Assembly: GCA_964016885.1 (NCBI GenBank)
Contig: OZ024742.1
Coordinates: 7,750,001 to 7,814,000 of the forward strand
DNA length: 64,000 nt
Direction: 5' to 3'
DNA from: Eledone cirrhosa
Lineage: Eukaryota
Part shown: positions 5,715 to 43,075 of the stretch, one piece after another
Numbering within the stretch: position 1 is the first letter of the stretch
How the letters are laid out: every line of letters starts with the position of its first letter
Notes under the pieces: model-generated
The model's input: only the letters and a program-made list of their open reading frames with translations
Database searches by the model: none
Told to the model about the DNA's origin: nothing
Position numbers and translations under genes: made by a program

Positions 5715-6073
5715 GGTTTACCGAACATTTATTATAATGTTCGCGATATGCAAATTAGGCTGCTCAGCCGTTAATATGCATGAGGAAAGTATATACTTTC
5801 AAACATTCAATCAACTGACGGGAAGGTATACGGTGCTGATGACAGCTAATAAGCTAGAAACTAGTACATCGTTCCTTTGTCAGTGTTGAACAAAAGGGTA
5901 ACGATGGTTGCCGATCACTGTACGGCTTAATTCGTGATGTTTGTTTACAAACAAACCGAACATTATAATAAATGTTCGGTAAACCTATGCGTACATATAT
6001 GTATGTGTGCATGTATGTATGTATATGCATACTACTGTACATCTGTATACATATATGTATGTACGTATACATA

Positions 6074-6077
<4 letters not shown>
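5715..6077 (+). mobile_element. Monomer of HHR-containing ~430-bp family R (retrozyme-like)
   Basis: Homologous to the tandem units at 16533-17740 and to 38663-39052. Confidence 0.75.
5832..5870 (+). ncRNA. Minimal type I hammerhead ribozyme
   Basis: ggtg-CTGATGA-c agct aata agct a-GAAA-ctag-TA-catc. Confidence 0.75.
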
Positions 6078-6149
<72 letters not shown>

Positions 6150-15249: not shown

Positions 15250-15990
15250 TATTAAAATGACAGATTAAAGTTTAAGCAAAAAATCGCTGCTTTCACCCTT
15301 AACGGGATCTTCTGAAACTAACAAAGTCAATCTGTAAACACAGAAGTGGATATTTCAAAAAACGTTGCAACTTCATGTTTTGGTTGACGTTCCTCTCCGA
15401 ACATGTGTGTATTTATATGTAGGTATGTGCGTGCGCTTGTGATATACGTATTTATTTATTTATATACTTATTTATTTGTATAAACGCACACACACACACA
15501 TTTATTTAATTTCAATTACCTCTGTATTGTATTTTATTTACTTTATTCTTTACTCTGAAGCGGAGAATCATTCGGTTTCCTAGTTAGAATTTTAGTCTAC
15601 GACTTCAGCTATACCATTTACGTGGTTTTGTCTTTGCGTGCAATTGCTCTCCACGCTCCACATATGACGTATTATCTTCGTTTTTTCCGTTCATTGCCAG
15701 AGAACGTCTCTATGAACCACCTAAGAGAACATTAGTCTACGACTTCTTTTATACCAAAAACGTGGTTCTGTCTTTGCGTGTAATTGTTTTTCACCGCTCC
15801 AAATAATAACGTATTATATTCGTTTTTTTCCCGTTCTTTGCCAGGGAACGTTTCACGAACCAAAGTATCGTCTTCCTGTCTTCCTCCAGTTGCAACGTTT
15901 TTTGAAATATCCACTTCTGCGTTTACAGATTGACTTTGTTAGTTTCAGAAGATCCCGTTAAGGGTGAAAGCAACGATTCTTTGCTTTAAT
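15250..15990. mobile_element. Family I element with terminal inverted arms and HHR-like variants
   Basis: Arms 15270-15371 / 15889-15986; HHR topology agttt-CAGAAGA-tccc gttaa gggt-GAAA-gca..tgc-TT-aaact at 15269-15319 (minus); homologous to 29437-30645. Confidence 0.65.
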
Positions 15991-16267
15991 GTGTTATTTT
16001 AATAAATATTTGCTCTACGGTTTTTATATATTTGATATATATTTATCCTTATCGAGACCTCTTTCGATTTTAGTCTTCAAATTTATTATTATTACTATAT
16101 ATATATATATATATATATATAAATATTTAGGTTTGTTGGTTCACCACTGGATAGAACTGGTCATTCCGTATGGACAATCTCGATGTAATATTATGGAGAG
16201 CACTCACCGTAATGCAACTTACCCGTCTTCGTTTGTGTAGTTGGTGGTGCGAGTACGGAGTTAATTA

Positions 16268-16507
16268 TTATAAAATAACAGGAAGCTGGACTGGTGTAAA
16301 TACTTGAAAGGTTTATTATACTATGATCATTTCAATAACCGGGCTCAGTATGAATCCGGTGACATCTTCAGGTATTCAAAATCCTTTGTTATATTTTGAA
16401 TACCTGATGATGCCAACGGATTTATACTGAGCCCGGTCATTGAAATGATCATAGTATAATAAACCTTTCAAGGATTTACACCAGCCCAGCCTCCTGTTAT
16501 TTTATAA
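16268..16507. mobile_element. Fold-back pLTR-like insertion with an HHR on both arms
   Basis: Arms 16268-16382 / 16394-16507. Confidence 0.8.
16400..16457 (+). ncRNA. Minimal type I hammerhead ribozyme (mirror copy 16318-16375, minus strand)
   Basis: atac-CTGATGA-...-GAAA-tgatca-TA-gtat; palindromic loop III. Confidence 0.7.
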
Positions 16508-16532
16508 TATATATATCTATATATATATCTAT

Positions 16533-17945
16533 ATAAACGGAAAAAATGATACGAGATTTCATTTCTCACTTTAGTACGGTTGTTACATAAATATAAGTAT
16601 GTATACGTACATACATATATGTATACAGACGTACAGTAGTATGTATATATATACATACATGCACACATATATATATATGTACGTATGGATTCACCGAACA
16701 TTTATTATAATGCTCGGTGTGTTTGTAAACAAACATCCCGTATTAAGCCGTACAGTGTCTAGCAACCATCGTTGCTCATTTGTTCAACACTGACAATGGA
16801 ACGCTGTACTAGTTTCAAGCTTATTAGCTATCGTCAGCAACGTATACCTTCCTGCCAGATGGTTGAACGTCTGAAAGTATATACTTTCCTTATGCATATT
16901 AACGGCTGACCAGCCTAATTTGCATATCGAGTGAGTTAATCGGCCGGGGTACCGAAAACGATAAACGGAAATAAATGAAACGAAATTTCATTTCTCACTT
17001 TAGTAAGGCTGTTACTTAAATATAAGTATGTATACGTACATACATATATGTATACAGACGTACAGAAGTATGTATATATATACATACATGCACACATATA
17101 TATATGTATGTATGGATTCACCGAACATTTATTATAATGCTCGGTGTCTTTGTAAACAAACATTCCGAATTAAGCCGTACGGTGTCTAGCAACCATGGTT
17201 GCTCATTTGTTCAACACTGACAAAGGAACGCTGTACTAGTTTCAAGCTTATTAGCTATCGTCAGCAACGTATACCTTCCTGCCAGATGGTTGAACGTCTG
17301 AAAGTATATACTTTCCTTATGCATATTAACGGCTGAGCAGCCTAATTTGCATATCGAGTGAGTTAATCGACTGGAGTACCGAAAACGATAAACGGAAAAA
17401 ATGAAACGAAATTTCATTTCTCACTTTAGTACGACTGTTACTTAAATATAAGTATGTATACGTACATACATATATGTACACAGACGTACAGTAGTATGTA
17501 TATATATACATACATGCACACACATATATATATATGTACGTATGGATTCACCGAACATTTATTATAATGCTCGGTGTGTTTGTAAACAAACATCCCGAAT
17601 TAAGCCGTACAGTGTCTAGCAACAATCGTTGCTCATTTGTTCAACACTGACAAAGGAACGCTGTACTAGTTTCAAGCTTATTAGCTATCGTCAGCAACGT
17701 ATACCTTCCTGCCAGATGGTTGAACGACTGAAAGTATATACGTTCCTTTGTCAATGTTGAACAAATGAGCAACGATGGTTGATAGACACTGTACAGCTTA
17801 ATTCGGGCTGTTTGTTTACAAACACACCGAGCATCATAATAAATGTTCGGTGAATCCATACGTACATATATATATATATGTGTGCATGTATGTATATATA
17901 TACATACTACTGTACGTCTGTATACATATATGTATGTATGTATAC

Positions 17946-17950
<5 letters not shown>
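16533..17950 (-). mobile_element. Tandem array of ~428-bp HHR-containing units (retrozyme-like) plus an inverted partial unit
   Basis: Units start ~16535, 16963 and 17391; HHR on the minus strand at 16802-16842, 17229-17269 and 17659-17699; inversion from 17741. Confidence 0.8.
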
Positions 17951-18479: not shown

Positions 18480-18950
18480 AGCCGTGTCCTTCTGACGATG
18501 TAAGAAAATACTGTATAAGTCGGCAAGTTAACGATGCTGCCTGATCCAACGACTCCCACATTAATTAATATCGTCTAACCAAAGCTTAACAAATGAAATA
18601 ACACACTGCCTTCTCCAAGTCATTTACAAAACTCACTCTTTTATCTTATATTGGAACACAAAACAAATAGATTTGATAGGCAGCAAGATAACAAATATGC
18701 TGGCAGACATGAACCACTCTTTGCGATGGTGGAATGACGGAAGCTTGCCTTATATGGTCAGGTATCTCGCCACAACTGTTTGTATAAAATCATACTTCAG
18801 AGCACAGGCGAGGGAGGACAAAGTAGAGGCAGACAAAGAAATTCCTGGTCTGACAACATCAAAGATTCGACTGGTCAATAGACCGAGATCCTTCTATATA
18901 CGACGGAGGATAGGGGCCGAACAGTGGCGACGGCTGACTACGAAATAAGC
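18480..18950 (+). mobile_element. Decayed LINE (RTE-like) 3' fragment
   Basis: Frameshifted remnants of GH..R...K.IL.G...G..SRGR.R..W.DNIK motifs; boundaries approximate. Confidence 0.5.
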
Positions 18951-18955
18951 TAAAG

Positions 18956-21442
18956 CGGCACCCAGCGACTGGCTGTACCAGTGGTACATCTATAGTGGCA
19001 CCCCAGCAACTGGCTGTACCAGTGGTACATCTATAGTGGCACCCCAGCAACTGGCTGTACCAGTGGCACATCTAGAGTGACACCCCAACTACTGGCTGTA
19101 CCAGTGGTACATCTATAATGGCACCCCAGCAACTGGCTGTACCAGTGGCACATCTAGAGTGACACCCCAACGACTGGCTGTACCAGTGGCACATCTAGAG
19201 TAGCACCCCAGCGACTGGCTGTACCAGTGGCACATCTATAGTGGCACCCCAGCAACTGGCTGTACCAGTGGCACATCTAGAGTAGCACCCCAGCGACTGG
19301 CTCTACCAGTGGCACATCTAGAGTGACACCCCAGCAACTGGCTGTACCAGTGGCACATCTAGAGTGACACCCCAGCGACTGGCTGTACCAGTGGCACATC
19401 TAGAGTGGCACCACAACGACTGGCTGTACCAGTGGCACATCTAGAGTGACACCACAACGACTGGCTGTACCAGTGGCACATCTATAGTGGCACCCCAGCG
19501 ACTGACTCTACCAGTGGAACATCTAGAGTGACACCCCAGCGACTGGCTGTACCAGTGGCACATCTAGAGTGACACCCCAGCAACTGGCTGTACCAGTGGC
19601 ACATCTAGAGTGACACCCCAGCGACTGGCTGTACCAGTGGCACATCTATAGTGGCACCCCAGCAACTGGCTGTACCAGTGGCACATCTAGAGTGACACTC
19701 CAGCGACTGGCTGTACCAGTGGCACATCTAGAGTGACACCCCAGCGACTGGCTGTACCAGTGGCACATCTATAGTGGCACCCCAGCGACTGGCTGTACCA
19801 GTGGCACATCTAGAGTAGCACCCCAGCGACTGGCTGTACCAGTGGCACATCTAGAGTGGCACCCCAGCAACTGGCTGTACCAGTGGCACATCTATAGTGG
19901 CACCCCAGCAACTGGCTGTACCAGTGGCACATCTAGAGTGGCACCCCAGCAACTGGCTGTACCAGTGGCACATCTAGAGTAGCACCCCAGCGACTGGCTC
20001 TACCAGTGGCACATCTATAGTGGCACCCCTGCAACTGGCTGTACCAGTGGCACATCTAGAGTAGCACCCCAGCGACTGGCTGTACCAGTGGCACATCTAG
20101 AGTGACATCTCAACGACTGGATGCACCAGTGACACATCTAAAGTGACACCCCAGCGACTGGCTGTACCAGTGGCACATCTAGAGTAGCACCCCAGCGACT
20201 GGCTGTACCAGTGGCACATCTAGAGTGACATCTCAACGACTGGATGCACCAGTGACACATCTAAAGTGACACCCCAGCGACTGGCTGTACCAGTGGTACA
20301 TCTAGAGTAGCACCCCACCGACTGGCTGTACCAGTGGCACATCTAGAGTGGCACCCCAGCGACTGGCTGTTCCAGTGGTACATCTAGAGTGACATCCCAA
20401 CGACTGGCTCTACCAGTGGCACATCTATAGTGGCACCCCAGCAACTGGCTGTACCAGTGGCACATCTAGAGTGGCACCCCAGCAACTGGCTGTACCAGTG
20501 GCACATCTAGAGTAGCACCCCAGCGACTGGCTCTACCAGTGGCACATCTATAGTGGCACCCCAGCAACTGGCTGTACCAGTGGCACATCTAGAGTAGCAC
20601 CCCAGCGACTGGCTGTACCAGTGGCACATCTAGAGTGACATCTCAACGACTGGATGCACCAGTGACACATCTAAAGTGACACCCCAGCGACTGGCTGTAC
20701 CAGTGGCACATCTAGAGTAGCACCCCAGCGACTGGCTGTACCAGTGGCACATCTAGAGTGACATCTCAACGACTGGATGCACCAGTGACACATCTAAAGT
20801 GACACCCCAGCGACTGGCTGTACCAGTGGTACATCTAGAGTAGCACCCCACCGACTGGCTGTACCAGTGGCACATCTAGAGTGGCACCCCAGCGACTGGC
20901 TGTTCCAGTGGTACATCTAGAGTGACATCCCAACGACTGGCTCTACCAGTGGCACATCTAGAGTGGCACCCCAGCGACTGGCTGTTCCAGTGGTACATCT
21001 AGAGTGACATCCCAACGACTGGCTCTACCAGTGACACATCTAAAGTGACACCCCAGCGACTGGCTGTAGCAGTGGCACATGTATAGTGGCACCCCAGCGA
21101 CTGGCTGTTCCAGTGGCACATCTAGAGTGACACCCCAGCGACTGGCTGTACCAGTGGCACATCTAGAGTGACACCCCAGCGACTGGCTGTACCAGTGGCA
21201 CATCTAAAGTGACACCCCAGCGACTGGCTGTACCAGTGGCACATCTAGAGTGACACCCCAACGACTGGCTGTACCAGTGGCACATCTAAAGTGACACCCC
21301 AGCGACTGGCTGTACCAGTGGCACATCTAAAGTGACACCCCAGCGACTGGCTGTACCAGTGGCACATCTAAAGTGACACCCCAGCGACTGGCTGTACCAG
21401 TGGCACATCTAAAGTGACACCCCAGCGACTGGCTGTTCCAGT
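18956..21442. repeat. 41-bp GC-rich minisatellite, ~60 copies, with higher-order structure
   Basis: Unit tctagagtgacaccccagcgactggctgtaccagtggcaca. Confidence 0.95.
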
Positions 21443-21909: not shown

Positions 21910-22499
21910 TATATATATATATATATATTGTTATACTTGGGGAGGGTCATATTTGTGTAATATTGCCAGAATTAATAACAGAACACACTCACTGTTTGGT
22001 TGGTTTTCGCTTCTCGCTGTCTTTTATATCTGCGATGTAACTTACTCGGTCCTCAATGTTGCCATTGACTGACCGACGGTCAAAAATAATACAGATACAA
22101 TATAGACACAAACACATATATATAGTTTACATAATTTACATAAATCTTTCGTTGCACATCTGCAACATCGTCAATGGTGTTATATTTTTCTTTTCCTCCT
22201 GTTGTGTTGTATGTCTGCGCCATTTTTTATTCAGTCTGTCTATATATTTTTTTTTTATTTATTTGCTTGTTTGTTTATTTTATTTTGTCTTCTTTGCGCA
22301 TGCGTTTGCGTGTGTGTACAGTGTTGTGTGTGCTGTGTGACTAGTGTGTATAGTGTTGTGTCTGCTGGGTGACTAGTGTGTGTTTATGTGCTTGTTGTTA
22401 TTGTGCTTGTGTATGTATTTATTTATCTTATTTTATTTTATTTTATTTATTTACTTATTTATACTTCTCTTATGTCAGTGTTGTTTGTTTGGGTGTTGT

Positions 22500-24250
22500 T
22501 GTTGTTCCACTCATTCTTTCTGTTTAGCTTTGGTCTTCTAATTTCTATTTCACTGGCCTCTCTGATTTGCCTATCTGCTGGGTCATTCCTATGTTTAGAT
22601 ATTATTCTAATTTCTATGTTGTCTATGTTACCGTCATGTTGTTGTCTAGCATGTTCGTATAGTACTGACCCGTCTTTTCGTCCTTTTAGTTCCCCCAGTG
22701 TTGGTCTATCCTTTCGCCTATGCTACGAGCTGTCTCACCTATGTATGTTGTTGTCATGTTTCTGCAAGTACCCTCTGTAGATCTTATGCTATAGACTACG
22801 TTTCTAGTTTTACAGTTTATCCGGGGGTTCACCTTACATATGATACATTTCCTATTGGTATAGTGGGTTTTCTTAAAAGGGTAGGTTTTGCTGATCAGGG
22901 ATTTTATGGTGGTTCCTGGCTTTTCTACCACCTTTATTTTTAAGTGGGTCTTTCTCAGGGCCTTTCTACACTGGTTAGCTAATTTCCCTCCAGGGGTGGC
23001 GTCCACAAACATGACACTCTGATATCTCTGGTTGTCGTATCATGATGTGGCCCTCCCTATCTTATGTCTAGCCCTATCTAAGCTATTCCATGATTTTCTC
23101 CTGTATAGTGGGCAAATTCCTTTCATGTCCAGTTCTATGAGGGTCTTATACTTTTCCATGGCTCCTTCGTATACTCTGACTCTGTCTCTTTGGTTGTAGC
23201 CAGAGAACTGCATGCGGTTGATGAAGTGTTGGATGTGTCTTTCCATTTCTGTTGGGTCGCACATGCCGGACACATTCTTCATCACTCGTACCAAATCTGC
23301 GATCAGAATATTAAACTTAGCACTACTGGACATTGCTGAGTTTTTGAGTATCAGGTATTTGGAGGCCATGGGTTTAGCATAGTGTGAGTGGAGAATTTGG
23401 GCTCTCTCGTCTATAGTGTTAATCCAGAGTTCTGTGTCTAATACAGGTAGTCTATTGTTAGGGTGTTTGGAAAGGAAGTCTATAGTTACAGTTATACTCT
23501 GGTGTATGGAATTAGCTATCTGCTGGATGCTTTCCATCGTGCTACGTTCTAAATCAAACTTGTTAGTGCTCTCCAGTGGGGGTGTTCTTATAACTATATT
23601 GATATCGTCTACATAACGAGAGTACATGATGAGGTCTATGGAGCTTTCATTAAGGAGATCTTTAAGTCTCCTTTCCCACCATACCATGAAAAGGTTGGCA
23701 ACATCACCAGCTATGCTGACGCCGATGGCCGCTCCCTCATTTTGGGTGTAGATTTTCTCATTGAACTTAAATATGTGGCCCTTTAGGGTAGTTTTGATAC
23801 TAGCACCTATTGCATGTGCGACCATTTTTCTTACCTGATCAGTGTTTTGGGGGGTCCGTATAGCTTTGGTCCACCCAATCCACCTTCCTATGGGAGTCTT
23901 TTTAGCCATTGAGGTTATGGTGGGGGGTCTACCTCTTATAGGTCTACTAGGGCAGAAACATCTAAGGTCATGGCTGTCTAGGTAGTCAGTGTCGTAGGTA
24001 AGTCTAAGTAGGAGGCCCAGTTCGTCTGTGTCGACGTCGCAGAACTCCACCTCACTCTCAATGATCATCTCCACACATCTTTTCACAGCAAAATCAATGT
24101 TAATGGATGGGTACAGTGACACCACATCCATGCTGCCTATTATGCAGTTGGATAGGCTCCTGTTTTTGTTGCACTCACTGATTCTGCTGAGGAGGTCCTC
24201 TGTACTTTCACATACATCTGGGGACATCTTGATTATGGGGCGTATAACCA
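22500..24250 (-). pseudogene. Inverted, 5'-truncated PLE RT/GIY-YIG copy
   Basis: ORFs 23040-24251 and 22686-23012, nearly identical to the plus-strand copy. Confidence 0.9.
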
Positions 24251-27200
24251 AACTAATTCATCGCCGCTACGGCATTAGCTTGTGCCAAGCTGAAAGGTTA
24301 CTGAAAGACACTGTTTTCTGTTATATAAAAACTACAATAACAACAGAACAAATCCGCTTCTTAAAACACTGTGTTTCCTCCAAAACATACACAACAAACA
24401 TATCAAAACAAGTAAATAATTTATTATTGAACAAAACACAAGCCGGACGACTAAAACACATAATAACAGTTAATATGAAAAGAACAACATACACAAAAGT
24501 CAACGCACTCTACAAACAGAAACGCATTAACGGTAAGGAAATCCGAAATCTCATCACACCAAACGAGAGAGATAACTTCATGAGCGCCATCCGACGTGAA
24601 ACGAAATACGCTCAAAACGAATGCAATAGGCATTTCAAGAAGAAATTAGAATGGATGAATAAGAAAAAACTACAAGAAAGGAAAACCGAATATTCTCAGA
24701 AATACCCAGATAACATCGACAATATCCGTATGACTGATGTAAAACTACCGGAAGAATTTACCAATGACCACACAGTAAATATCTATGGGAACACTTTCAT
24801 CAGCGAACAAGAACAACAAATCCTACGGTTACCACCAAAATTTGCCATCTACAAAAAGATTCACCCTATGGAGTGCAAAACGGAGCTGGAAAAGTGTTTC
24901 ACAAAAATACGTTGGAATGCAAAGGTAAACAACAACAACAATAATAACGGTAGTAGTAATATAAACAATAACTCTGGGTATAGAAATAACAGCCATAACC
25001 ATAACAATGGCAGGAAAGTGAGAAATAGTGATAATGGCAATAATACTAGCGATAGACGGAACAACAACAACCACAATAATAATAATAATAGAAACGTTAA
25101 CCACAGACACAGCAACAGTGACCACAGTAGTAATAACGGTAACAATACGAACAACAACAACAATAACCACAGTGGTAATAATGGAAATAGTACATGTAGC
25201 AACATCAACAAAAACAAGAAACATAATAATAGTAACAACCACAATGGTAGAAATAACAGTAACAACAACAACAATAACGGTGAAGTAAACAACAATACAT
25301 CTAGCAATCATAACAATAATAATAATGCTAATGATAGAAACAACAACAACCACCATGATAACAATAATAGCAACACACACAACTATGACGATAGATATAA
25401 TGACAACCCCTTGGAGAAACTATTTTTCAACCCAGCTGACAAAACATATAAGATGGGTAATATCTATCCTACGAGGTTACCCTTTAATAAAAGAGTTTGC
25501 ATACCACAGCAAATAGATGACGAGACGGAGGCACAGTTCACCATAGCTAGAAATAAGATTAGACAAGTAGTAGACAGGTATACTAAGAGACAGAGCAGAC
25601 CAGAGGCCCAACAACTTGGGAGAAAACCTGTAGAAGGCTTGGTTAGCCTCAAGCAGCGCACAAGGGATGGTGAGGTAGTGTGTCTACCCACAGATAAGTC
25701 TGGTAGGATGTCAATAGATAGCATGCCGAACTACATCGAGGCTATGCAACCCCACATCACCAACACGAGCGAAGTTGCACAACAAACACACGAGGGAAAA
25801 AATCCTCAACGCTCACATGATGATGTGGACTGACATCCTAAAGCCAAGCAGACGCACTGTCAACAACTTCCAGGCGTCTAACAATGGCATACCACCCTTG
25901 TATGGGCTCCGCAAAGACCACATGACAGTCAACGACCCAACAACAGGACCACCAACAAGACCCGTATGCGGAGCTAATATAGCTAGCAACTACAGGATCT
26001 CCTACTTCCTCTCAATGGTTATACGCCCCATAATCAAGATGTCCCCAGATGTATGTGAAAGTACAGAGGACCTCCTCAGCAGAATCAGTGACTGCAACAA
26101 AAACAGGAGCCTATCCAACTGCATAATAGGCAGCATGGATGTTGTGTCACTGTACCCATCCATTAACATTGATTTTGCTGTGAAAAGATGTGTGGAGATG
26201 ATCATTGAGAGTGAGGTGGAGTTCTGCGACGTCGACACAGACGAACTGGGCCTCCTACTTAGACTTACCTACGACACTGACTACCTAGACAGCCATGACC
26301 TTAGATGTTTCTGCCCTAGTAGACCTATAAGAGGTAGACCCCCCACCATAACCTCAATGGCTAAAAGGACTCCCATAGGAAGGTGGATTGGGTGGACCAA
26401 AGCTATACGGACCCCCCAAAACACTGATCAGGTAAGAAAAATGGCCGCACATGCAATAGGTGCTAGTATCAAAACTACCCTAAAGGGCCACATATTTAAG
26501 TTCAATGAGAAAATCTACACCCAAAATGAGGGAGCGGCCATCGGCGTCAGCATAGCTGGTGATGTTGCCAACCTTTTCATGGTATGGTGGGAAAGGAGAC
26601 TTAAAGATCTCCTTAATGAAAGCTCCATAGACCTCATCATGTACTCTCGTTATGTAGACGATATCAATATAGTTATAAGAACACCCCCACTAGAGAGCAC
26701 TAACAAGTTTGATTTAGAACGTAGCACGATGGAAAGCATCCAGCAGATAGCTAATTCCATACACCAGAGTATAACTGTAACTATAGACTTCCTTTCCAAA
26801 CACCCTAACAATAGACTACCTGTATTAGACACAGAACTCTGGATTAACACTATAGACGAGAGAGCCCAAATTCTCCACTCACACTATGCTAAACCCATGG
26901 CCTCCAAATACCTGATACTCAAAAACTCAGCAATGTCCAGTAGTGCTAAGTTTAATATTCTGATCGCAGATTTGGTACCAGTGATGAAGAATGTGTCCGG
27001 CATGTGCGACCCAACAGAAATGGAAAGACACATCCAACACTTCATCAACCGCATGCAGTTCTCTGGCTACAACCAAAGAGACAGAGTCAGAGTATACGAA
27101 GGAGCCATGGAAAAGTATAAGACCCTCATAGAACTGGACATGAAAGGAATTTGCCCACTATACAGGAGAAAATCATGGAATAGCTTAGATAGGGCTAGAC

Positions 27201-27800
27201 ATAAGATAGGGAAGGCCACATCATGATACGACAACCAGAGATATCAGAGTGTCATGTTTGTGGACGCCACCCCTGGAGGGAAATTAGCTAACCAGTGTAA
27301 AAAGGCCCTGAGAAAGACCCACTTAAAAATGAAGGTGGTAGAAAAGCCAGGAACCACCATAAAATCCCTGATCAGCAAAACCTACCCTTTTAAGAAAACC
27401 CACTATACCAATAGGAAATGTATCATATGTAAGGTGAACCCCCGGATAAACTGTAAAACTAGAAACGTAGTCTATAGCATAAGATCTACAGAGGGTACTT
27501 GCAGAAACATGACAACAACATACATAGGTGAGACAGCTCGTAGCATAGGCGAAAGGATAGACCAACACTGGGGGAACTAAAAGGACGAAAAAACGGGTCA
27601 GTACTATACGAACATGCTAGACAACAACATGACGGTAACATAGACAACATAGAAATTAGAATAATATCTAAACATAGGAATGACCCAGCAGATAGGCAAA
27701 TCAGAGAGGCCAGTGAAATAGAAATTAGAAGACCAAAGCTAAACAGAAAGAATGAGTGGAACAACAACAACACCCAAACAAACAACACTGACCTAAGAGA
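24250..27800 (+). pseudogene. PLE RT + GIY-YIG endonuclease ORF, disrupted
   Basis: Frameshift near 25790, TGA at 27224-27226, frameshift near 27572; C-terminus continues SVLYEHARQQH..RQIREASEI..LNRKNEW; Asn-rich insert ~24930-25400. Confidence 0.9.
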
Positions 27801-28085
27801 AGTATAAATAAGTAAATAAATAAAATAAAGTAAAATAAGATAAATAAATATATACACAAGCACAATAACAACAAGGACATAAACACACACTAGTCACCCA
27901 GCAGACACAACACTATACACACTAGTCACACAGCACACACAACACTGTACACACACGCAAACGCATGCGCAAAGAAGACAAAATAAAATAAACAAACAAG
28001 CAAATAAATAAATAAAAATATATAGACAGACTGAATAAAAAATGGCGCAGACATACAACACAACAGGAGGAAAAAAAAAATATAA

Positions 28086-28128
28086 CACCACTGACGATGT
28101 TGCAGATGTGCAACGAAAGATTTATGTA
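28086..28128 (+). ncRNA. Minimal hammerhead motif in PLE 3' UTR (mirror ~22138-22180, minus strand)
   Basis: CTGACGA-t gttgca gatg tgcaac-GAAA-gatt-TA-tg; weak stem I. Confidence 0.6.
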
Positions 28129-28394
28129 AATTATGTAAACTATATATATGTCTTTGTGTCTATATTGTATCTGTATTATTTTTGACCGTCGGTCAGTCAA
28201 TGGCAACATTGAGGACCGATTAAGTTACATCGCAGATATAAAAGACAGCGAGAAGCGAAAACCAACCAAACAGTGAGTGTGTTCTGTTATTAATTCTGGC
28301 AATATTACACAAATATGACCCTCCCCAAGTATAACAATATTTGTTTCGACACACGATTTCATATAAAAAACCTCGCTAAACTAATTCATCGCCG

Positions 28395-28428
<34 letters not shown>

Positions 28429-31428: not shown

Positions 31429-31668
31429 TATATTATTATTATTATTATTATTATTGAATGCTATGGTTGACGGAGGCTCGGCTCTGTAAGGTATTGTAAA
31501 TTTTGACCGCTATAACAATTGTAAATTGTTTAAAACTTTAACCAACTTGTAGACAAAAACACCCTCCTCCTCGTGAGAGGGGTCTTTCTGCCCGTTATTT
31601 GGCCCTTCGGGGTTAAATAACCGCTTATTGTGGTTTTGTGCCCAATATTTATTTTAAAAAAAAACAAC

Positions 31669-33817
31669 ATGGCTACGAAAAAGAATTTTCATAGGTCACT
31701 CCCACTCATTCCGTCTTCTTCTTCCGCAATCGTCACTACAGCAGAGAGAAGATTGTCTCTCTCCCTCCCTTCTTTAAATGTGTCTCTCTCCTTCCCTTCT
31801 CTTTCGCAAGCGACGACAGAAAAGAAAAATCTCGTGCAAAGCGTGCAAGATTTCTCCACGACGACGACGACAACGACGAAACAGGTGTGCGGGAATTACG
31901 AAAACCCATTTCATTCGTGTGACGTCAGGAATAATAACAGTAGCAGCCGTAATAACAACAGCAACAGTGACAATGAAAACAACAGTAGCAGCGGCAACAG
32001 CATCAGCAGCAGCATAAACAACAACAGCATTAGCAGCAGCAACACCAACAACAACCACAGCAACAGCGGCGTCGGCAGTAGTCGTAGTACCTGCAGCAAC
32101 AACAAAAGTAACATCAGCTGTGACGACAACAACATCAACAAGAGCAGCAAAGAAAAACCAATCTCGTTTGCAGGTATCGCAAATAACCTGGAAACCATCC
32201 TCATAACAAATGAGGAATTAGAGGAAGCGAAGAAGATGGTGACAAAAACTGGACACCGAGCAATCTGCAAGGCAGCGGAAAAATATTTCGAAACCCAACA
32301 GCACTGTACGGTCACGTACCGTACAGTAAGTACAAAATCCCGTAGGGTTGAAAGAGCCACAGAGGCTCAAATACAAAAAGCCTTGGGGTCTGTGTGGCAG
32401 CGGAAAACGCACATCACCCGAGGCAAGAAATATACCACCGTAGACGTACTTTTTGTCACACCCCAGGAGGCAACGGCTCAATCCTTAGTGACCCTAAGGA
32501 GCGAGGAAATGGTGTTTGTGCCCTCCTACTGCGGGCAAAAAATTGTGAGGGTCAAACTGAACACGTGCCCCCCCCCCCCCCCCCCCCGGGATGGCCCCTT
32601 CTTGGCTGGCCGCGGCGTCTGTCCTCGCCGGAATCGAGGACAAAACAACTGTACTGCAAGTACAGAAAAAAGTATGAGAAGATTGGGTCGGCACCTCCAT
32701 TGAGATGTTAATCCAAACCAACCAGGAGTGCATCGAAGCTATCCCGGATGTGATAGACTTCGATAACGGCACTCAACTGCCCATAAGTGTTGAGGGCAAA
32801 CGCCCGAAATGCTTTCGCTGTGGATCGAAGACTCACCTCGGGCCTTCTGCAACGAGAAGACCCTGAGAAAGGAGAAAAACCCCCTCCTTCCGAAACCAGC
32901 TCCACGGCTACCAGCAACAGGACAATCGGCAACCAGGAACGATAGGTCCGTGGCACCCATACCCACGCCACGGAAATCAAAACCAGCAGCAGCAGTGGAA
33001 ATATTAACAACAACAACAGCAATACCAAATGCAGCTGCAACAGAGACTCCAGTGCAAACATCACCAACAACAACAAGTGAAAGAGTGGAGCTGGTACCCC
33101 TCCCCGACCTCACAGAATCAGACATGGAGTGTGAGGTGGGAGAGGGATAGCAAAGGGTCGTAAGAAGGCACAAACGCAGAAGCAGCGCATCGTCGCCTTT
33201 GAAAAGGGAGGAAAGAAATAAAAAAAAGGGTAAAGGCTACTGCAAAGAGACTCACAGCAGCAACACCACCAACACCATCACCACCCACACTAGCACCACC
33301 ATCACCACCGGCGACAACCCCACCGCCAACAACACCTTCAACACCACAAGGACCAACATCGCAAATACAACAACAAAACACACACACCCAGCAACAACGA
33401 CAAGAAAATAACAGAACCACACCCCACCCCCAGAAAAACAAATGCACGGCAATAAATACACACAACAAGAAACTAATGACTTATATGATTGAACACACAG
33501 ACATTTCACAACACGACTACATAATACCAGCACCAATCAAAACGCCAACTAACATAAGACTGCTAAAAATAGCACAGAAACAATACACAAACATTAAAAC
33601 GAAATTCCCCAACGCAGTTGGTGATTTCAGAGACCTAGGAGGGACACTCAACCGAAGAGTATATTCGGACATACTCATAGAAGGGCCGACGACCAGCCGA
33701 AGGGACGATTCAACGGTCCCTTCACCAGACGATCAAGTGAAAAGGGATGGAAAAACCATCCCTCCTCTACGAAAAGTACGCTGTGTGGTCTTTCCCATCT
33801 TTTCCACTCTATTTTAA
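31669..33817 (+). pseudogene. Tx1 ORF1 (gag-like, CCHC knuckle), frameshifted
   Basis: ATG at 31669; C-run 32568-32588 shifts the frame; KCFRCGSKTH at ~32807-32837; low-complexity N/S/T tracts. Confidence 0.65.
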
Positions 33818-33819
33818 AC

Positions 33820-36800
33820 ATGACCTCACTCAGAATAGGCAGCATAAATGCGCGTGGCTTGGGGTCGTCATGGAAGCAGGGTCACCTGCTCAACGACCTC
33901 AGGTCACTAAACATAGATGTAGTGGCCATCAGCGAGACCAGAATCTCCGAAGCACGGGCCTTCGCACCAATTTTCGGCGGCTACGATGTGTACGCATCTC
34001 CCAGCCGTCCTGGATCGGGGGGAGGAGTTGCTGTGCTTTTACGGAGAGGTTTGGATCTCGCCATACGGGCCATCTTCCTGGACCCAGAGGGTAAGTTGGT
34101 GGTGCTGGACGTGACCAGCGGAGACGGGCAAGCTTTCAGGCTAGTGGCCGTCTATGCCCCGACAGGAGCAGGGCGGCCTGATTTCTTCCGGCGTCTGGAG
34201 ACCTTTCTTGGAACGTCCCGCTCTTTAGTGTTAGTGGGCGACTGGAAGGGGATCTTAGATGCACGCTGGGACTGTGTGGGATTAGTGGATAGGGGTGGAG
34301 GGTGCAAGAGCCTCACCAACCTGCTCAGGCGTTTTGAACTGTCTGACAGGTACCGATTGGATTTCCCGAATGTGCCAATGTGGACTTGGACAAATCGCAT
34401 AGGGTCATCCAGATCATATCTAGATAGAGTATTTTGTAGGGAAATAGATAGGTCTAGCATAGGCTGTCCACAATTCAAGATAGTCAGCTACACGGACCAC
34501 AAATTCGTGATCTGTGTGCTTGACTTAGATAGGCTTCATAGACGAGGACCCGGCTACTGGAAGCTAAACGCGTCCTTACCAGCGCGCAAGGCCTACAGAG
34601 ACCGGATTAGCGAACTAGTTAAGCGGGCATCGACGGGGGCCATCGTCAACAACAAGTGGTGGTTTGCTCTGAAAAGAGCGATTAGAATAGAATCGATTAG
34701 GTTTAGTAAGGCTTTAGCAATAGAGAAAAATAGAGCAGAGGGAGAACTATTTAGAAAATTAGACGAGGCGCTTAGCAAAGGCATTGCGACCGACGTGCTT
34801 GCGGCGAAATTGGCCCTTGACCAATTCTTCAATGCAAAGCACGAAGGCTGCGTTGTCAGAGCTAGGGTGCGTGCTCTTAGACACGAGGGGACGAAAGCCG
34901 TTCAATGGGCCCGAGTGGCGGAGGCGCGTCATGGCAACAAAGCCACGATCCGGTCTTTGGTGGACCGCGACGGGCGCATGCTACTCGATCCCGGGCAAAT
35001 GTGTGAAGCTTTTCAGCGACACTTCGCTCAGCTGTTCGGTGGCAGCGGTGGGCCGGGTCGAGGGATGGAGTTTAGTGTCTATCTCGACGGACTGCCGCGG
35101 CTCTCGGCCACTGAGGCGGAGTGTTGCGAAAAGCGGATAACAGCCGCTGAAGTACGGGAGGCAATGACTGGCTGCACAAGGGGTAAATCGCCTGGTTTGG
35201 ATGGTCTGCCCTATGAACTTTACGTACAGATGCCAGACTTGTTCGGAGGCCTCTTGGCGGACGTCTACTGCAACAGGCAACAGAACGGGAGAATTCCCAG
35301 TTCTGTGAGCCGAGGAGCGGTGGCACTGCTGAGAAAGAATCCGAACAAGGGGGATAACATAGATCATTTCCGGCCCATAACTCTGCTAAACACAGAGTTC
35401 AAGATTTTGGCCAAGGTGCTAGCAAAGAGGTTGGTGCTTGTCGTTGGTGGTCTGGTGGGAGAGGCTCAGACATGCGCCATTCCCGACAGATCCATCCACG
35501 ACAACCTCCACCTGATGCGATACATCGTAGAGAGGGTAGCTAGGGAACCTGGCACGGGTGGGTGCTTGATCAATTTAGATCAGTCTAAAGCTTTCGATAG
35601 GGTCGACCATCGTTACCTAGCGGCAGTCCTGAGGGCGGCTGGCTTTGGGCCCGTCTTCAGAGGCTGGAACGCTGCCATGCACAGCGACATCTGCTCTGTG
35701 GTGAGAGTGAACGGTCACCTGTCGGAACCGTTCAACATCATGCGCTCGGTCCGCCAAGGATGTCCCCTCTCGTCCCTCTTGTACGTATTGACTCTCGAGC
35801 CATTACTGCACAAACTGGAGACGTTGAGAGGCGTCCCGCGCGAACTAGGATGCGGAAGATCCATGTCAGCATATGCGGACGATGTCACCGTAGTGGTGTC
35901 GAACGCCAAACACATCGAGGCGATCGGCACTACACTAAGAGAATACGAAGCGGTGACAGGAGCAATGATCAACCAGGAAAAGTCAGTGGGCCTGCAGCTC
36001 GGCACCTGGAGAGGCAGGTCCATGCCGTCCAACAGCGTCGTCGGACGCTGGACGGACGGACCGGTTAAATTGATAGGGGCCTGGTTCGGTCCGGACCACC
36101 AGACGGACAAAAACTGGGACGATGTGACGAGCAGGGTGGCTTCTCTCACCCAGAAATGGGCGGAGAGGAAGCTATCCCTGAAAGGTCGAGCGGAGGTGGT
36201 TAACGCGTACATCGCGTCTGTCATCTGCTACCGCCTGACCGTCATACCTTGTCCAAAGCCCCGCCTGACTGCGCTGGAGCGTTTGCTCTTTCGCTTTTTG
36301 TGGAAGGGACGCGCTCCGATGGTCAGGCGGTCCATCTGCTGTCAACACCCGCTACGTGGAGGGCTGGGAATGCCGTGGCTGATGATGCGCAGACACGCGC
36401 TCAGGCTACGACATCTCCACCTCCTCCTCGACGGTGATCAGGTGTGGTCGCCGTTTGCTAGACACGTATTTCCCCAGCTCGTTTCCTTGACGGAGCTGCA
36501 GTCCTGGGTCAAGCGAAGACCGAGAGGGAGCGCCTGGAGACTGGAATGTCTTCAGGCACTCACAGCCCTCGACCAATCGGGCAATGTGATCGGTGGAAAC
36601 TCCACCTCGGCGTTCTATAGAGGATTAGTGGAGGGGAAGAGCGACGATGTACTTGGAGAAACTCTAGGCGTCGACGAAAATCAACTAGCCAATCTCTTCG
36701 GAAGAACTTTCGGGCCAGGGTCTATGGAGAACTTCCAGAAATCTCTGGCCTGGCAGTGCTACCGAGGAGCCTTGCCAGTTCGGGATAAACTCTACAGGCA

Positions 36801-36885
36801 TGGAGGTGCCGTCAGCCGGGCATGTCCGAGATGTGCGCAGGGCGACGAAACCGTCCTGCCCGCACTCGTCCAGAGTAGAGAGTAG
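33820..36885 (+). CDS. L1/Tx1 ORF2: AP-like endonuclease + reverse transcriptase, C-terminus truncated
   Basis: SINARGL, ISET, VYAP, GDW, SYLDR, TDH, PGYWKLN, KSPGLDG, FRPITLLN, DQSKAFDRVDH, VRQGCPLS, AYADD. Confidence 0.92.
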   Translation: MTSLRIGSINARGLGSSWKQGHLLNDLRSLNIDVVAISETRISEARAFAPIFGGYDVYASPSRPGSGGGVAVLLRRGLDLAIRAIFLDPEGKLVVLDVTSGDGQAFRLVAVYAPTGAGRPDFFRRLETFLGTSRSLVLVGDWKGILDARWDCVGLVDRGGGCKSLTNLLRRFELSDRYRLDFPNVPMWTWTNRIGSSRSYLDRVFCREIDRSSIGCPQFKIVSYTDHKFVICVLDLDRLHRRGPGYWKLNASLPARKAYRDRISELVKRASTGAIVNNKWWFALKRAIRIESIRFSKALAIEKNRAEGELFRKLDEALSKGIATDVLAAKLALDQFFNAKHEGCVVRARVRALRHEGTKAVQWARVAEARHGNKATIRSLVDRDGRMLLDPGQMCEAFQRHFAQLFGGSGGPGRGMEFSVYLDGLPRLSATEAECCEKRITAAEVREAMTGCTRGKSPGLDGLPYELYVQMPDLFGGLLADVYCNRQQNGRIPSSVSRGAVALLRKNPNKGDNIDHFRPITLLNTEFKILAKVLAKRLVLVVGGLVGEAQTCAIPDRSIHDNLHLMRYIVERVAREPGTGGCLINLDQSKAFDRVDHRYLAAVLRAAGFGPVFRGWNAAMHSDICSVVRVNGHLSEPFNIMRSVRQGCPLSSLLYVLTLEPLLHKLETLRGVPRELGCGRSMSAYADDVTVVVSNAKHIEAIGTTLREYEAVTGAMINQEKSVGLQLGTWRGRSMPSNSVVGRWTDGPVKLIGAWFGPDHQTDKNWDDVTSRVASLTQKWAERKLSLKGRAEVVNAYIASVICYRLTVIPCPKPRLTALERLLFRFLWKGRAPMVRRSICCQHPLRGGLGMPWLMMRRHALRLRHLHLLLDGDQVWSPFARHVFPQLVSLTELQSWVKRRPRGSAWRLECLQALTALDQSGNVIGGNSTSAFYRGLVEGKSDDVLGETLGVDENQLANLFGRTFGPGSMENFQKSLAWQCYRGALPVRDKLYRHGGAVSRACPRCAQGDETVLPALVQSRE

Positions 36886-38615: not shown

Positions 38616-38662
38616 GTCCCCTACGGTATGCTATACTTTCTGTTGTTCTCCTGTCTCGCTGC

Positions 38663-39049
38663 TTAACCGTTAATATGCATAAGGAAAGGATATACTTTCA
38701 GACGTTCAATCATCTGGCAGGAAGGTATATGGTGCTGACGATAGCTAATAAGCTTGAAACTAGTACATCGTTCCTGTGTCAGTGTTGAACAAAGAGGCGA
38801 TGATGGTTGCCGAACACTGTACGATTTAATTCGGGTTGTTTGTTTGTTTACAAACAAACAAACCGAGGATTATAATAAATGTTCGGTAAACCCATACGTA
38901 CATATATATGTGTGCATGTGTGTATATATATACATACTACTGTACGTCTGTATACATATATGTATGTACGTATACATATACATACATACTTACATTTAAG
39001 TATCAGCCGTACTAAGAGTGAGAAATGAAATTTCGTTTCATTCTTTTCC

Positions 39050-39052
<3 letters not shown>
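38663..39052 (+). mobile_element. Family R monomer with HHR at 38731-38769
   Basis: ggtg-CTGACGA-t agct aata agct t-GAAA-ctag-TA-catc; ends in (TA)n. Confidence 0.78.
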
Positions 39053-39083
<31 letters not shown>

Positions 39084-41455: not shown

Positions 41456-42216
41456 AGTATGTATCTCCCTACACATCCATACACATACTTATGCATGTAT
41501 ATATTGTTGTAGATGTGTTAAATATATAAAATACCAAACATTGATTGAACGAAGGACTCAATACATCAATAAAATCAAATATTTATTATAATATTTCTGA
41601 TAGGGACTTCGAAATGTCGCTTTTACAAAAGTTCAAACCAGTCGACATCCATTTCACATTTTATGCGAGGTCGATAAATAAAGTACCAGTCCAATACTGG
41701 GTATCTCTTTCTCACGTTCTTTCTATCACACACACACACTCTCTCTCTCTCTTTCTCACGTCATTTTTATCACACACACACACATTCTCTCTCTATTTCT
41801 CTATGACTCTCTCTCTTTCTCATATCCTTTCTATCACACACTCTCTCTCGCTCTTCCTTTCTCTCTATATCTCTTTCTCGTTTTTTTTTCTTTCCCTCTT
41901 TCTCGCGTCGTTTTTATCACTCTCTAATTATCTCTCTTTCTTTCGTTCTTTCTTTCTTTCTCTCTCTTTCTCTCTGTCTGCCTCTCTCTTTTTCTTTCTC
42001 TCTTCCTCTATCTCCTTCGCTGTAAGAAACCGCTGAAGCGGTTAGTCTCCCCTAGGTTTAAAGTACTCAAGCATGTCACTTGGGTGCCCCTACCAATCCA
42101 CTGGTTGACACACCATACACTACTAACATAATCCCTGCTCAATGTTCAAGGATGTTGTGAAACATTTAAGGATTCCATTTCAAATATTGACTTTTATATG
42201 ACTTAGTTATTATGTA

Positions 42217-43075
42217 TATATAATAGAGTGTATAAATTGATATTAACTATATATAATAGAGTGTATAAATTGATGTTAACTATATATAATAGAGTGTATA
42301 AATTGATGTTAACTATATATAATAGAGTGTATAAATTGATATTAACTATATATAATAGAGTGTATAAATTGATATTAACTATATATAATAGAGTGTATAA
42401 ATTGATGTTAACTATATATAATAGAGTGTATAAATTGATATTAACTATATATAATAGAGTGTATAAATTGATATTAACTATATATAATAGAGTGTATAAA
42501 TTGATGTTAACTATATATAATAGAGTGTATAAATTGATATTAACTATATATAATAGAGTGTATAAATTGATATTAACTATATATAATAGAGTGTATAAAT
42601 TGATGTTAACTATATATAATAGAGTGTATAAATTGATGTTAACTATATATAATAGAGTGTATAAATTGATATTAACTATATATAATAGAGTGTATAAATT
42701 GATGTTAACTATATATAATAGAGTGTATAAATTGATGTTAACTATATATAATAGAGTGTATAAATTGATATTAACTATATATAATAGAGTGTATAAATTG
42801 ATATTAACTATATATAATAGAGTGTATAAATTGATGTTAACTATATATAATAGAGTGTATAAATTGATGTTAACTATATATAATAGAGTGTATAAATTGA
42901 TATAAACTATATATAATAGAGTGTATAAATTGATGTTAACTATATATAATAGAGTGTATAAATTGATGTTAACTATATATAATAGAGTGTATAAATTGAT
43001 GCTAACTATATATAATAGAGTGTATAAATTGATGTTAACTATATATAATAGAGTGTATAAATTGATGTTAACTAT
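42217..43075. repeat. 33-bp AT-rich minisatellite, ~26 copies
   Basis: Unit tatataatagagtgtataaattgat(a/g)ttaacta. Confidence 0.95.

What the first reader, a model, noticed from the sequence alone, without database searches (positions are those of the whole stretch)
16533..17950. Tandem ~428-bp hammerhead array resembling a non-LTR retrozyme (circRNA source)
Seen: three near-identical head-to-tail units, each with cgttg-CTGACGA-tagctaataagctt-GAAA-ctag-TA-cagcg on the minus strand (16802, 17229, 17659; spacings 427 and 430). Dispersed monomers occur at 5715-6077 and 38663-39052. Stem I varies between copies (cgttg/cagcg vs cggtg/catcg) while staying paired. Established: tandem minimal HHRs cleave as dimers and release monomers that circularise. 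Inference: an active or recent non-coding retrozyme family.
Basis: partly seen in the sequence, partly recalled or inferred. Interest (0 to 1): 0.75.

Follow-up and report, generated by a model that had tools for sequence, protein, structure and literature searches.

The report
Penelope-pasted hammerhead retrozyme array
This is one copy of a 427-base non-coding repeat, present over ten thousand times in this animal genome, that carries a predicted self-cutting RNA motif and has the insertion ends typical of Penelope-type jumping genes, which likely paste it in from a circular or multi-unit RNA; it is a new member of a known class, the retrozymes.

Summary
Observation confirmed and extended. 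16533-17748 holds 2.85 minus-strand units of 427-430 bp, each with an intact canonical (not minimal) type I hammerhead motif. The 25-nt core occurs 12,217 times in the genome (control 0). Two sister families share the fold with compensatory changes. Copies are 5'-truncated, lie in (TA)n and are often two-armed, head-to-head. In 35 of 37 classifiable two-armed insertions, one arm ends at a 'short' site and the other at a 'long' site 56-59 nt further on. A young Neptune-type Penelope-like element (PLE) in the same window follows the same rule, with a 58-nt tail. No copy sits as the terminal repeat behind a PLE ORF. Insertions do not start or stop at the cleavage site, so the template is likely a circle or an uncut multimer. 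Cleavage, transcription and circles are untested; no RNA run was available. Verdict: a non-LTR retrozyme, likely mobilised in trans by a PLE. This scan reported the same pattern before on other DNA, probably for the 422-bp subfamily of this family (e1-8665316).

The parts
16533..16960 (-). Unit 1 (3'-most). Ends at the 'long' 3' end (unit position 427) against a TA-rich run
16961..17387 (-). Unit 2, full 427-bp unit, used as reference (unit position 1 = 17387)
17388..17748 (-). Unit 3, 5'-truncated (unit 70-427)
17741..17949 (+). Inverted 5'-truncated arm (unit about 158-362). Joined head-to-head to unit 3 through a 6-nt microhomology at 17743-17748; starts 3 nt after the predicted cleavage site; ends 6 nt before the 'short' 3' end, then (CT)n/(TA)n
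   Evidence: (I1, 96% complementary)
16801..16843 (-). Type I hammerhead motif, unit 1; predicted cut between 16807 and 16806
17228..17270 (-). Type I hammerhead motif, unit 2: helix I 6 bp, CUGACGA, U.U then 4-bp helix II with AAUA loop, GAAA, palindromic ACUAGU helix III, GUA cut site between 17234 and 17233
17658..17700 (-). Type I hammerhead motif, unit 3; predicted cut between 17664 and 17663
17209..17295 (-). Extended helix I around the motif of unit 2 (same in the other units)
   Evidence: z -3.3; covariation
16961..17019 (-). 59-nt 'tail' between the short end (unit 368, in the loop of a small hairpin) and the long end (unit 427), shown for unit 2
5744..6083 (+). Dispersed 5'-truncated copy of an older subfamily (unit 32-371, short end into (TA)n), preceded by a short inverted piece at about 5715-5743
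38658..39055 (+). Dispersed 5'-truncated copy (unit about 47-427, long end into (TA)n)
24250..28398 (+). Neptune-type coding PLE (RT, Zn-finger-like linker, GIY-YIG; this copy is broken by stops/frameshift), long 3' end at 28398. Candidate helper family, not part of the array
21930..24257 (-). Inverted arm of that PLE, ending at its short 3' end (equivalent to 28340); left boundary approximate

Best explanation
The array is one insertion of a non-coding, 420-430-bp hammerhead-bearing repeat family (a non-LTR retrozyme) that is likely copied into (TA)n microsatellites in trans by the reverse transcriptase and endonuclease of a Penelope-like element, probably of Neptune type. Steps. (1) Shown: the unit has a conserved type I hammerhead fold and a conserved branched fold over its length. 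(2) Inferred from known retrozymes: tandem copies are transcribed, cut as dimers at GUA/CAGCG through the palindromic helix III, and the 427-nt monomers are ligated into circles. (3) Shown: insertions end in (TA)n at two fixed sites about 210 and 270 nt downstream of the cut site, are 5'-truncated at scattered points, and two-armed insertions carry one end of each kind. (4) Inferred: both strands of a cut TA run prime reverse transcription, one at the short site and one at the long site. Each arm runs through the cleavage junction on a circular or uncut multimeric RNA, and the two cDNAs are joined head-to-head by microhomology. (5) Shown in some loci: arrays later grow by DNA-level duplication.
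For: Copy number: 12,217 exact cores, 17,400 of a second 26-mer, 40,422 of a relaxed core, with controls 0, 0 and 31. Hammerhead pairs across three families: 93.7% of cells paired, 9 of 22 pairs changed on both sides, covariation score 0.362 against 0.172 shuffled and at most 0.092 slid. None of 28 subfamily-level variable sites (of 263 scored) lies in the 11 core positions. Whole unit: 24 of 112 predicted pairs show double changes in 7 sequences; circular fold z -6.9 and -6.6. Of 165 outer 3' ends, 74 are long, 73 short, 3 near the cut site and 15 other; 117 of 165 run into (TA)>=3. One long plus one short end in 35 of 37 classifiable two-armed insertions, p=1e-8; 33 of 35 without two segmental duplicates; 8 more of the 45 had an unclassified end. 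The same rule holds, read from the tables, in sister families B (3 of 3) and C (4 of 4) and in the window's PLE family (5 of 5, tail 58 nt), whereas Hydra-type PLEs have a tail of about 89 nt. No excess of 5' ends at the cut site: 5 of 114 at risk against a mean of 0.036 per window. Segments of one insertion share 8-14% of rare variants against 1% between insertions, also across inverted arms. The PLE tail on one of the inverted repeats, head-to-head arms and TA targets are described in PMC3846280 and PMC8557442.
Against: No RNA data: transcription, cleavage and circles are not shown. The base of helix II is U.U or C.A, not G-C, in families A and C; a U.U axolotl hammerhead cut only 22% in an hour as a monomer, and 8 of 9 predicted Xenopus retrozymes did not cut. 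The covariation rests on three related families and on a structure I drew from them; the count of doubly changed pairs (9) is not above shuffles (7.4; 74 of 500 as high). The opposite strand also folds well (z -3.7 to -6.3 for the window monomers). There is no sequence similarity between the unit and the Neptune-type PLE (best 12 nt, E 0.17), and the hairpin at the short end is not predicted for that PLE, so the helper is assigned by tail length and target only. Young long arrays are not uniform as one circle would predict: the 30 units of a family-B insertion and the 7 monomers of L155 show mosaic variants. The cut-site hazard test includes long arrays that are not independent.
Confidence: 0.8

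Rival explanations
1. The template is a linear uncut multimer transcribed from tandem source arrays. The hammerhead is slow or vestigial and circles play no part in spreading.
For: Arms run through the cut site without stopping; helix II has a mismatched base pair; units in long young arrays are mosaic, not identical; arrays of 25 and more units exist as possible sources.
Against: The core is unchanged across three families whose helices have covaried, which points to selection for catalysis. Both arms share rare variants at the same unit positions. An 11-segment two-armed insertion is almost uniform outside the microsatellite.
Confidence: 0.3
2. The repeat is the detached pseudo-LTR of a coding PLE not found here, and the copies are truncated insertions of that PLE.
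For: The ends behave exactly like PLE ends. Xenopus retrozymes are related to PLE pLTRs. A 30-codon frame spans the unit junction in some subfamilies, near where pLTRs hold the ORF start. My search for a parent was limited to top hits.
Against: Copies run on into further units, not into an ORF. Among 82 loci no shared coding flank adjoins the unit. Of 96 stretches, 16 have PLE-like hits; only L164 is directly joined, and there in the opposite orientation. All 150 scored matches of the 30-aa frame lie in open frames of at most 69 aa. The PLE families read here carry different hammerheads.
Confidence: 0.1
3. Ordinary satellite DNA spread by DNA-level recombination or extrachromosomal circles, with a dead ribozyme motif.
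For: A 25-unit array has a higher-order repeat of about 8 units and L158 alternates ABAB, both signs of DNA-level duplication.
Against: Fixed strand-specific 3' ends in (TA)n, scattered 5' truncation, the long/short rule and RNA-type covariation.
Confidence: 0.04
4. The inverted arm arises by self-priming on an antisense template, as proposed for PLEs, rather than by priming at both ends of the target cut.
For: PMC3846280 argues this from palindromes at the junction. The window's junction uses two sides of a helix.
Against: It does not by itself explain why the two outer ends fall at two different fixed sites in 35 of 37 cases and both run into TA. L164 joins arms from two unrelated elements.
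Confidence: 0.2

Closest known systems
Metazoan non-LTR retrozymes of coral, mussel and axolotl (Cervera and de la Pena 2020, PMC7229834; parts 2-4 of 6 read plus a term search; supplement not readable)
   Same: Tandem non-coding repeats of a few hundred bp, low GC, canonical type I hammerhead with short palindromic helix III, thousands of copies, co-resident PLEs. U.U at the base of helix II as in axolotl HHR_Amex2.
   Different: Unit slightly longer than the 170-400 nt quoted. Circles are shown there and not here. That paper's main text has no hit for 'inverted', 'microsatellite', 'truncat' or 'head-to', so the two-armed long/short anatomy is not described in it.
Li, Clavereau and Pollet 2026, bioRxiv 10.64898/2026.07.22.740005 (parts 1-3 of 5 read plus a term search; supplements closed)
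   Same: [quoted passage not shown]
   Different: Argues from co-occurrence and pLTR homology, mostly in vertebrates. No hit for 'tail'. Here no homologous pLTR was found, and the link is the insertion anatomy.
EN+ Penelope-like elements, Neptune/Nematis type (Craig et al. 2021, PMC8557442, passages; Arkhipova et al. 2013, PMC3846280, passages)
   Same: 5' truncation, partial tandems, inverted head-to-head arm, a tail on one end only, (TA)n targets, hammerhead near the 3' end.
   Different: No ORF. Tail 56-59 nt against 30-40 nt in those papers (58 nt in this genome's Neptune-type family). Canonical rather than minimal hammerhead.
Newt satellite 2 (known here only through citing passages in PMC7229834 and PMC2220036; the original paper was not held)
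   Same: Tandem repeat with a dimer-acting type I hammerhead.
   Different: An snRNA-type promoter was not found here: the host's U1/U2 upstream regions share no significant element with the unit.

Membership tests
Non-LTR retrozyme | Tandem units of about 150-450 bp, at least two in a row with a complete type I hammerhead | tested here: met
   three motifs spaced 427 and 430
Non-LTR retrozyme | Non-coding, low GC, no LTR organisation | tested here: met
   GC about 0.35; no protein-like ORF of 90 aa or more in the array, one low-complexity frame overlaps it; a 30-codon frame only
Non-LTR retrozyme | Dispersed multi-copy family with monomers, dimers and multimers | tested here: met
Non-LTR retrozyme | Highly self-paired monomer | tested here: met
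   65-69% paired, z about -6.7 as a circle, 30 shuffles; covariation
Non-LTR retrozyme | Self-cleavage of the transcript | not testable with these tools
   fold and conservation only
Non-LTR retrozyme | Accumulation of linear and circular monomer RNA | not testable with these tools
   no RNA holder listed
Canonical type I hammerhead | CUGANGA, GAAA, UH core with helices I-III | tested here: met
Canonical type I hammerhead | G10.1-C11.1 pair at the base of helix II | tested here: not met
   U.U or C.A in families A and C, G-C in family B; U.U has a precedent in axolotl HHR_Amex2
Canonical type I hammerhead | Loop 1-loop 2 tertiary contact | tested here: inconclusive
   a helix I bulge (UAU/UAA) and loop 2 (UAAYAA) are conserved across families; the contact was not modelled
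Canonical type I hammerhead | Match to an Rfam hammerhead model | tested here: not met
Minimal PLE hammerhead (min-HHR) | No helix III insert, helix II of 7-8 bp, short helix I | tested here: not met
   definition; structure
pLTR of an autonomous PLE | Lies behind an RT/GIY-YIG ORF on the same strand | tested here: not met
   0 of 96 stretches; a sample, not the whole genome
PLE-type insertion | 5' truncation, inverted head-to-head arm, tail on one end only, (TA)n target | tested here: met
PLE-type insertion | Mobilisation by a named PLE RT/EN | not testable with these tools
   tail length fits the Neptune-type family (58 nt) better than Hydra-type (about 89 nt); no shared sequence

The most novel reading that the evidence does not exclude
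These insertions record how Penelope-type enzymes integrate: one complex primes both strands of a cut TA run at two non-equivalent RNA sites about 58 nt apart and rolls around a small ribozyme circle. The two arms can come from different RNA molecules, as in the retrozyme/Hydra-PLE chimera at L164. A 427-nt circle plus the co-resident young Neptune-type protein would then be a minimal system to reconstitute PLE retrotransposition.
Probability: 0.35. Interest if true: 0.72.

Novelty: new member of a known kind. Interest (0 to 1): 0.45.

Why it matters
The two retrozyme papers read here propose, but do not show, that PLEs mobilise animal retrozymes, and PMC8557442 lists an in vitro PLE system as the next needed step. 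This family gives a countable footprint (35 of 37 long/short pairs), a matching young helper candidate and a short RNA to test. The class itself is known, and this scan has reported the pattern several times, so the locus adds support rather than a new kind of system.

Tried and rejected
Expression: no RNA holder listed; contigs of four runs laid on the array say nothing on RNA. snRNA-type promoter as in newt satellite 2: an ATGCAAAT octamer is kept in three families, but the 16 host U1/U2 upstream regions examined have no full octamer and no significant match to the unit, and the octamer also forms one arm of a hairpin; dropped. The promoter is unknown. A-to-I editing scars (lead from earlier notes): A>G 54 of 8052 against T>C 41 of 6769, p=0.68; among variants shared within an insertion A>G 6, T>C 2 of 34, too few to call. 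Linear cut monomers as templates: no pile-up of 5' or 3' ends at the cut site, although this locus's inverted arm starts 3 nt from it. Parent PLE through the 30-codon frame: none; the public protein collection was not searched with it. Hydra-type PLEs near some copies: separated by TA runs, with unrelated 3' ends. Rfam miRNA hits are microsatellite hairpins, all below gathering score. Paper searches for 'cephalopod' with 'hammerhead ribozyme', for hammerhead/octopus/retrozyme and for Penelope/twin priming/head-to-head/inverted listed no description of this family; listings only, and the host taxon was a guess.

Full report
Observation. The window lies in a 3.0-Gb animal genome rich in (TA)n. 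16533-17748 is a tandem of period 427, 2.8 copies, 95% matches. On the minus strand there are two full units and a third that starts at unit position 70. It is joined head-to-head to an inverted arm at 17741-17949 through a 6-nt microhomology. Two more copies lie at 5744-6083 and 38658-39055; both are 5'-truncated insertions. Rfam gives no hammerhead match.

The ribozyme motif. It is a canonical type I hammerhead: helix I of 6 bp extended beyond a bulge, CUGACGA, a 4-bp helix II, GAAA, and a palindromic ACUAGU helix III suited to dimers (definitions from passages of PMC4209133). The 91-nt region folds with z -3.2 to -3.7 in 5 of 5 window copies. Subfamilies differ at tolerated places: N7, the cut nucleotide (A or U), a U.G/G.U/A-U swap in helix I, and U.U or C.A at the base of helix II. 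None of 28 variable sites of 263 is in the core. Many loci were picked through the core, so the lower rare-variant load there (20 of 1067 against 443 of 15759) is not independent evidence. A relaxed pattern gave 40,422 matches against 31 and showed two sister families: C, about 470-500 bp and 72-79% like this one, and B, 466 bp with G-C at the base of helix II. Over 18 distinct sequences, 93.7% of cells pair and the covariation score is 0.362 against 0.172 shuffled; the number of doubly changed pairs (9 of 22) is not above shuffles. The whole unit keeps a branched fold, with 24 of 112 pairs doubly changed in 7 sequences. Cleavage is not shown, and the mismatch in helix II is a real weakness.

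The family. There are 12,217 exact copies of a 25-nt core and 17,400 of a downstream 26-mer, with controls 0. I read 96 stretches chosen by four searches (top hits or first places on contig 1) plus follow-up fetches, not a random sample. Outer 3' ends fall at two sites: 73 short (unit about 368-371), 74 long (about 421-427), 3 near the cut site and 15 elsewhere, of 165; 117 run into TA repeats. 5' ends are scattered. Of 45 two-armed head-to-head insertions, 37 had both ends classifiable and 35 of these carry one long and one short end (p=1e-8; 33 of 35 without two duplicates). This locus is one of them: long end at 16533, short-type end at 17949. Families B and C follow the same rule (3 of 3 and 4 of 4 read).

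The likely helper. The window holds a coding PLE at about 24250-28398 with an inverted arm. Its family is young: 150 of 150 scored matches are 98-100% identical, many in frames of about 1217 aa. Intact copies have a CX4CXXC linker before the GIY-YIG domain, the Neptune/Nematis mark in PMC8557442. Its 3' ends lie in TA runs at two main sites 58 nt apart, one of each in 5 of 5 two-armed cases. The retrozyme's sites are 59 nt apart (56 for the variant short end). Hydra-type PLEs (CxCX5C linker) in the genome have tails of about 89 nt. No sequence is shared with the Neptune-type element, so the pairing is inferred. No unit lies behind a PLE ORF in the same orientation. One locus, L164, joins two units head-to-head directly to the 3' part of a Hydra-type PLE that ends at an internal TA-like site. 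It is a single duplicated case and could be two successive insertions.

Template. Arms cross the cut site without extra stops (5 of 114 against a mean of 0.036), so linear cut monomers are unlikely templates. Segments of one insertion are closer to each other (3.1% tandem, 4.9% inverted) than to other insertions (7.9%) and share more rare variants (13.8% and 8.0% against 1.0%). One 11-segment insertion is nearly uniform outside the microsatellite in both arms. This fits repeated copying of one circle, but also a homogeneous source array. Against a single circle, long young arrays show mosaic variants, and a 25-unit array and L158 show DNA-level duplication. Circle against uncut multimer is open; I put it at about 60:40.

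Comparison. It works like, and by all sequence criteria is, a metazoan non-LTR retrozyme (PMC7229834, parts 2-4 read; preprint 10.64898/2026.07.22.740005, parts 1-3 read). The tail on one inverted repeat, head-to-head arms and TA targets are known for PLEs (passages of PMC3846280 and PMC8557442). Term searches in the two retrozyme papers' main texts found no description of this anatomy for retrozymes. Their supplements could not be read and may list related elements. Earlier AI notes of this scan describe the same anatomy in this and other genomes, one with a 422-bp unit and ends 59 nt apart; my counts came before I saw them.

Verdict. A real, ordinary member of a known class with an informative insertion footprint. 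New member of a known kind; interest 0.45; confidence 0.8 in retrozyme plus PLE mobilisation.

Noticed in passing
window 16266-16509: Head-to-head palindrome (117-nt arms, 93%) whose arms each carry another hammerhead-like motif with U.U at the base of helix II; a different PLE-type family. The array sits in the TA run at its right end.
   Followed up: no
window 15271-16098: 3' end of a Hydra-type PLE with a short inversion and an 89-nt tail; the same sequence follows a PLE ORF in L169 and L176.
   Followed up: partly
window 2690/2927, 6267, 12902/13031, 28091, 52631, 55332, 57510, 57900/58059, 60096/60337, 60757/60864: Further hammerhead-like motifs of at least four families, several as inverted pairs with a palindromic ATATATAT helix III; probably PLE ends.
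   Followed up: no
L164 5385-6865 (G000:C1:18484000-18493999): Chimeric head-to-head insertion: two retrozyme units on one arm, the 3' part of a Hydra-type PLE on the other, joined without a TA run; duplicated nearby in inverted form.
   Followed up: partly
L166-L167 (G000:C1:5738000-5752800): Family B insertion of about 31 units of 466 bp, 0-4 mismatches from the commonest unit, with a short inverted arm and long/short ends; variants are mosaic along the array.
   Followed up: partly
L031-L032 (G000:C3:72261500-72272400): 25-unit array of this family with a higher-order period of about 8 units.
   Followed up: partly
L182-L205, upstream of U1 and U2 genes: By eye, host U1 and U2 genes share TCAGT near -57, a TA-rich box near -30 and a CT-rich motif near -255, with no octamer.
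   Followed up: no
window 33625-36882 (+): 1086-aa open frame beginning like an AP-endonuclease non-LTR retrotransposon ORF2 (read by eye, no family scan), with an upstream frame at 31621-32700.
   Followed up: no
window 18950-21442 and 42215-43075: Minisatellites: 41 bp x 61 copies and 33 bp x 26 copies.
   Followed up: no
family-wide, RNA sense: Rare C>G changes outnumber G>C (53 against 37, p=0.02, one of six comparisons); unexplained, possibly chance.
   Followed up: no
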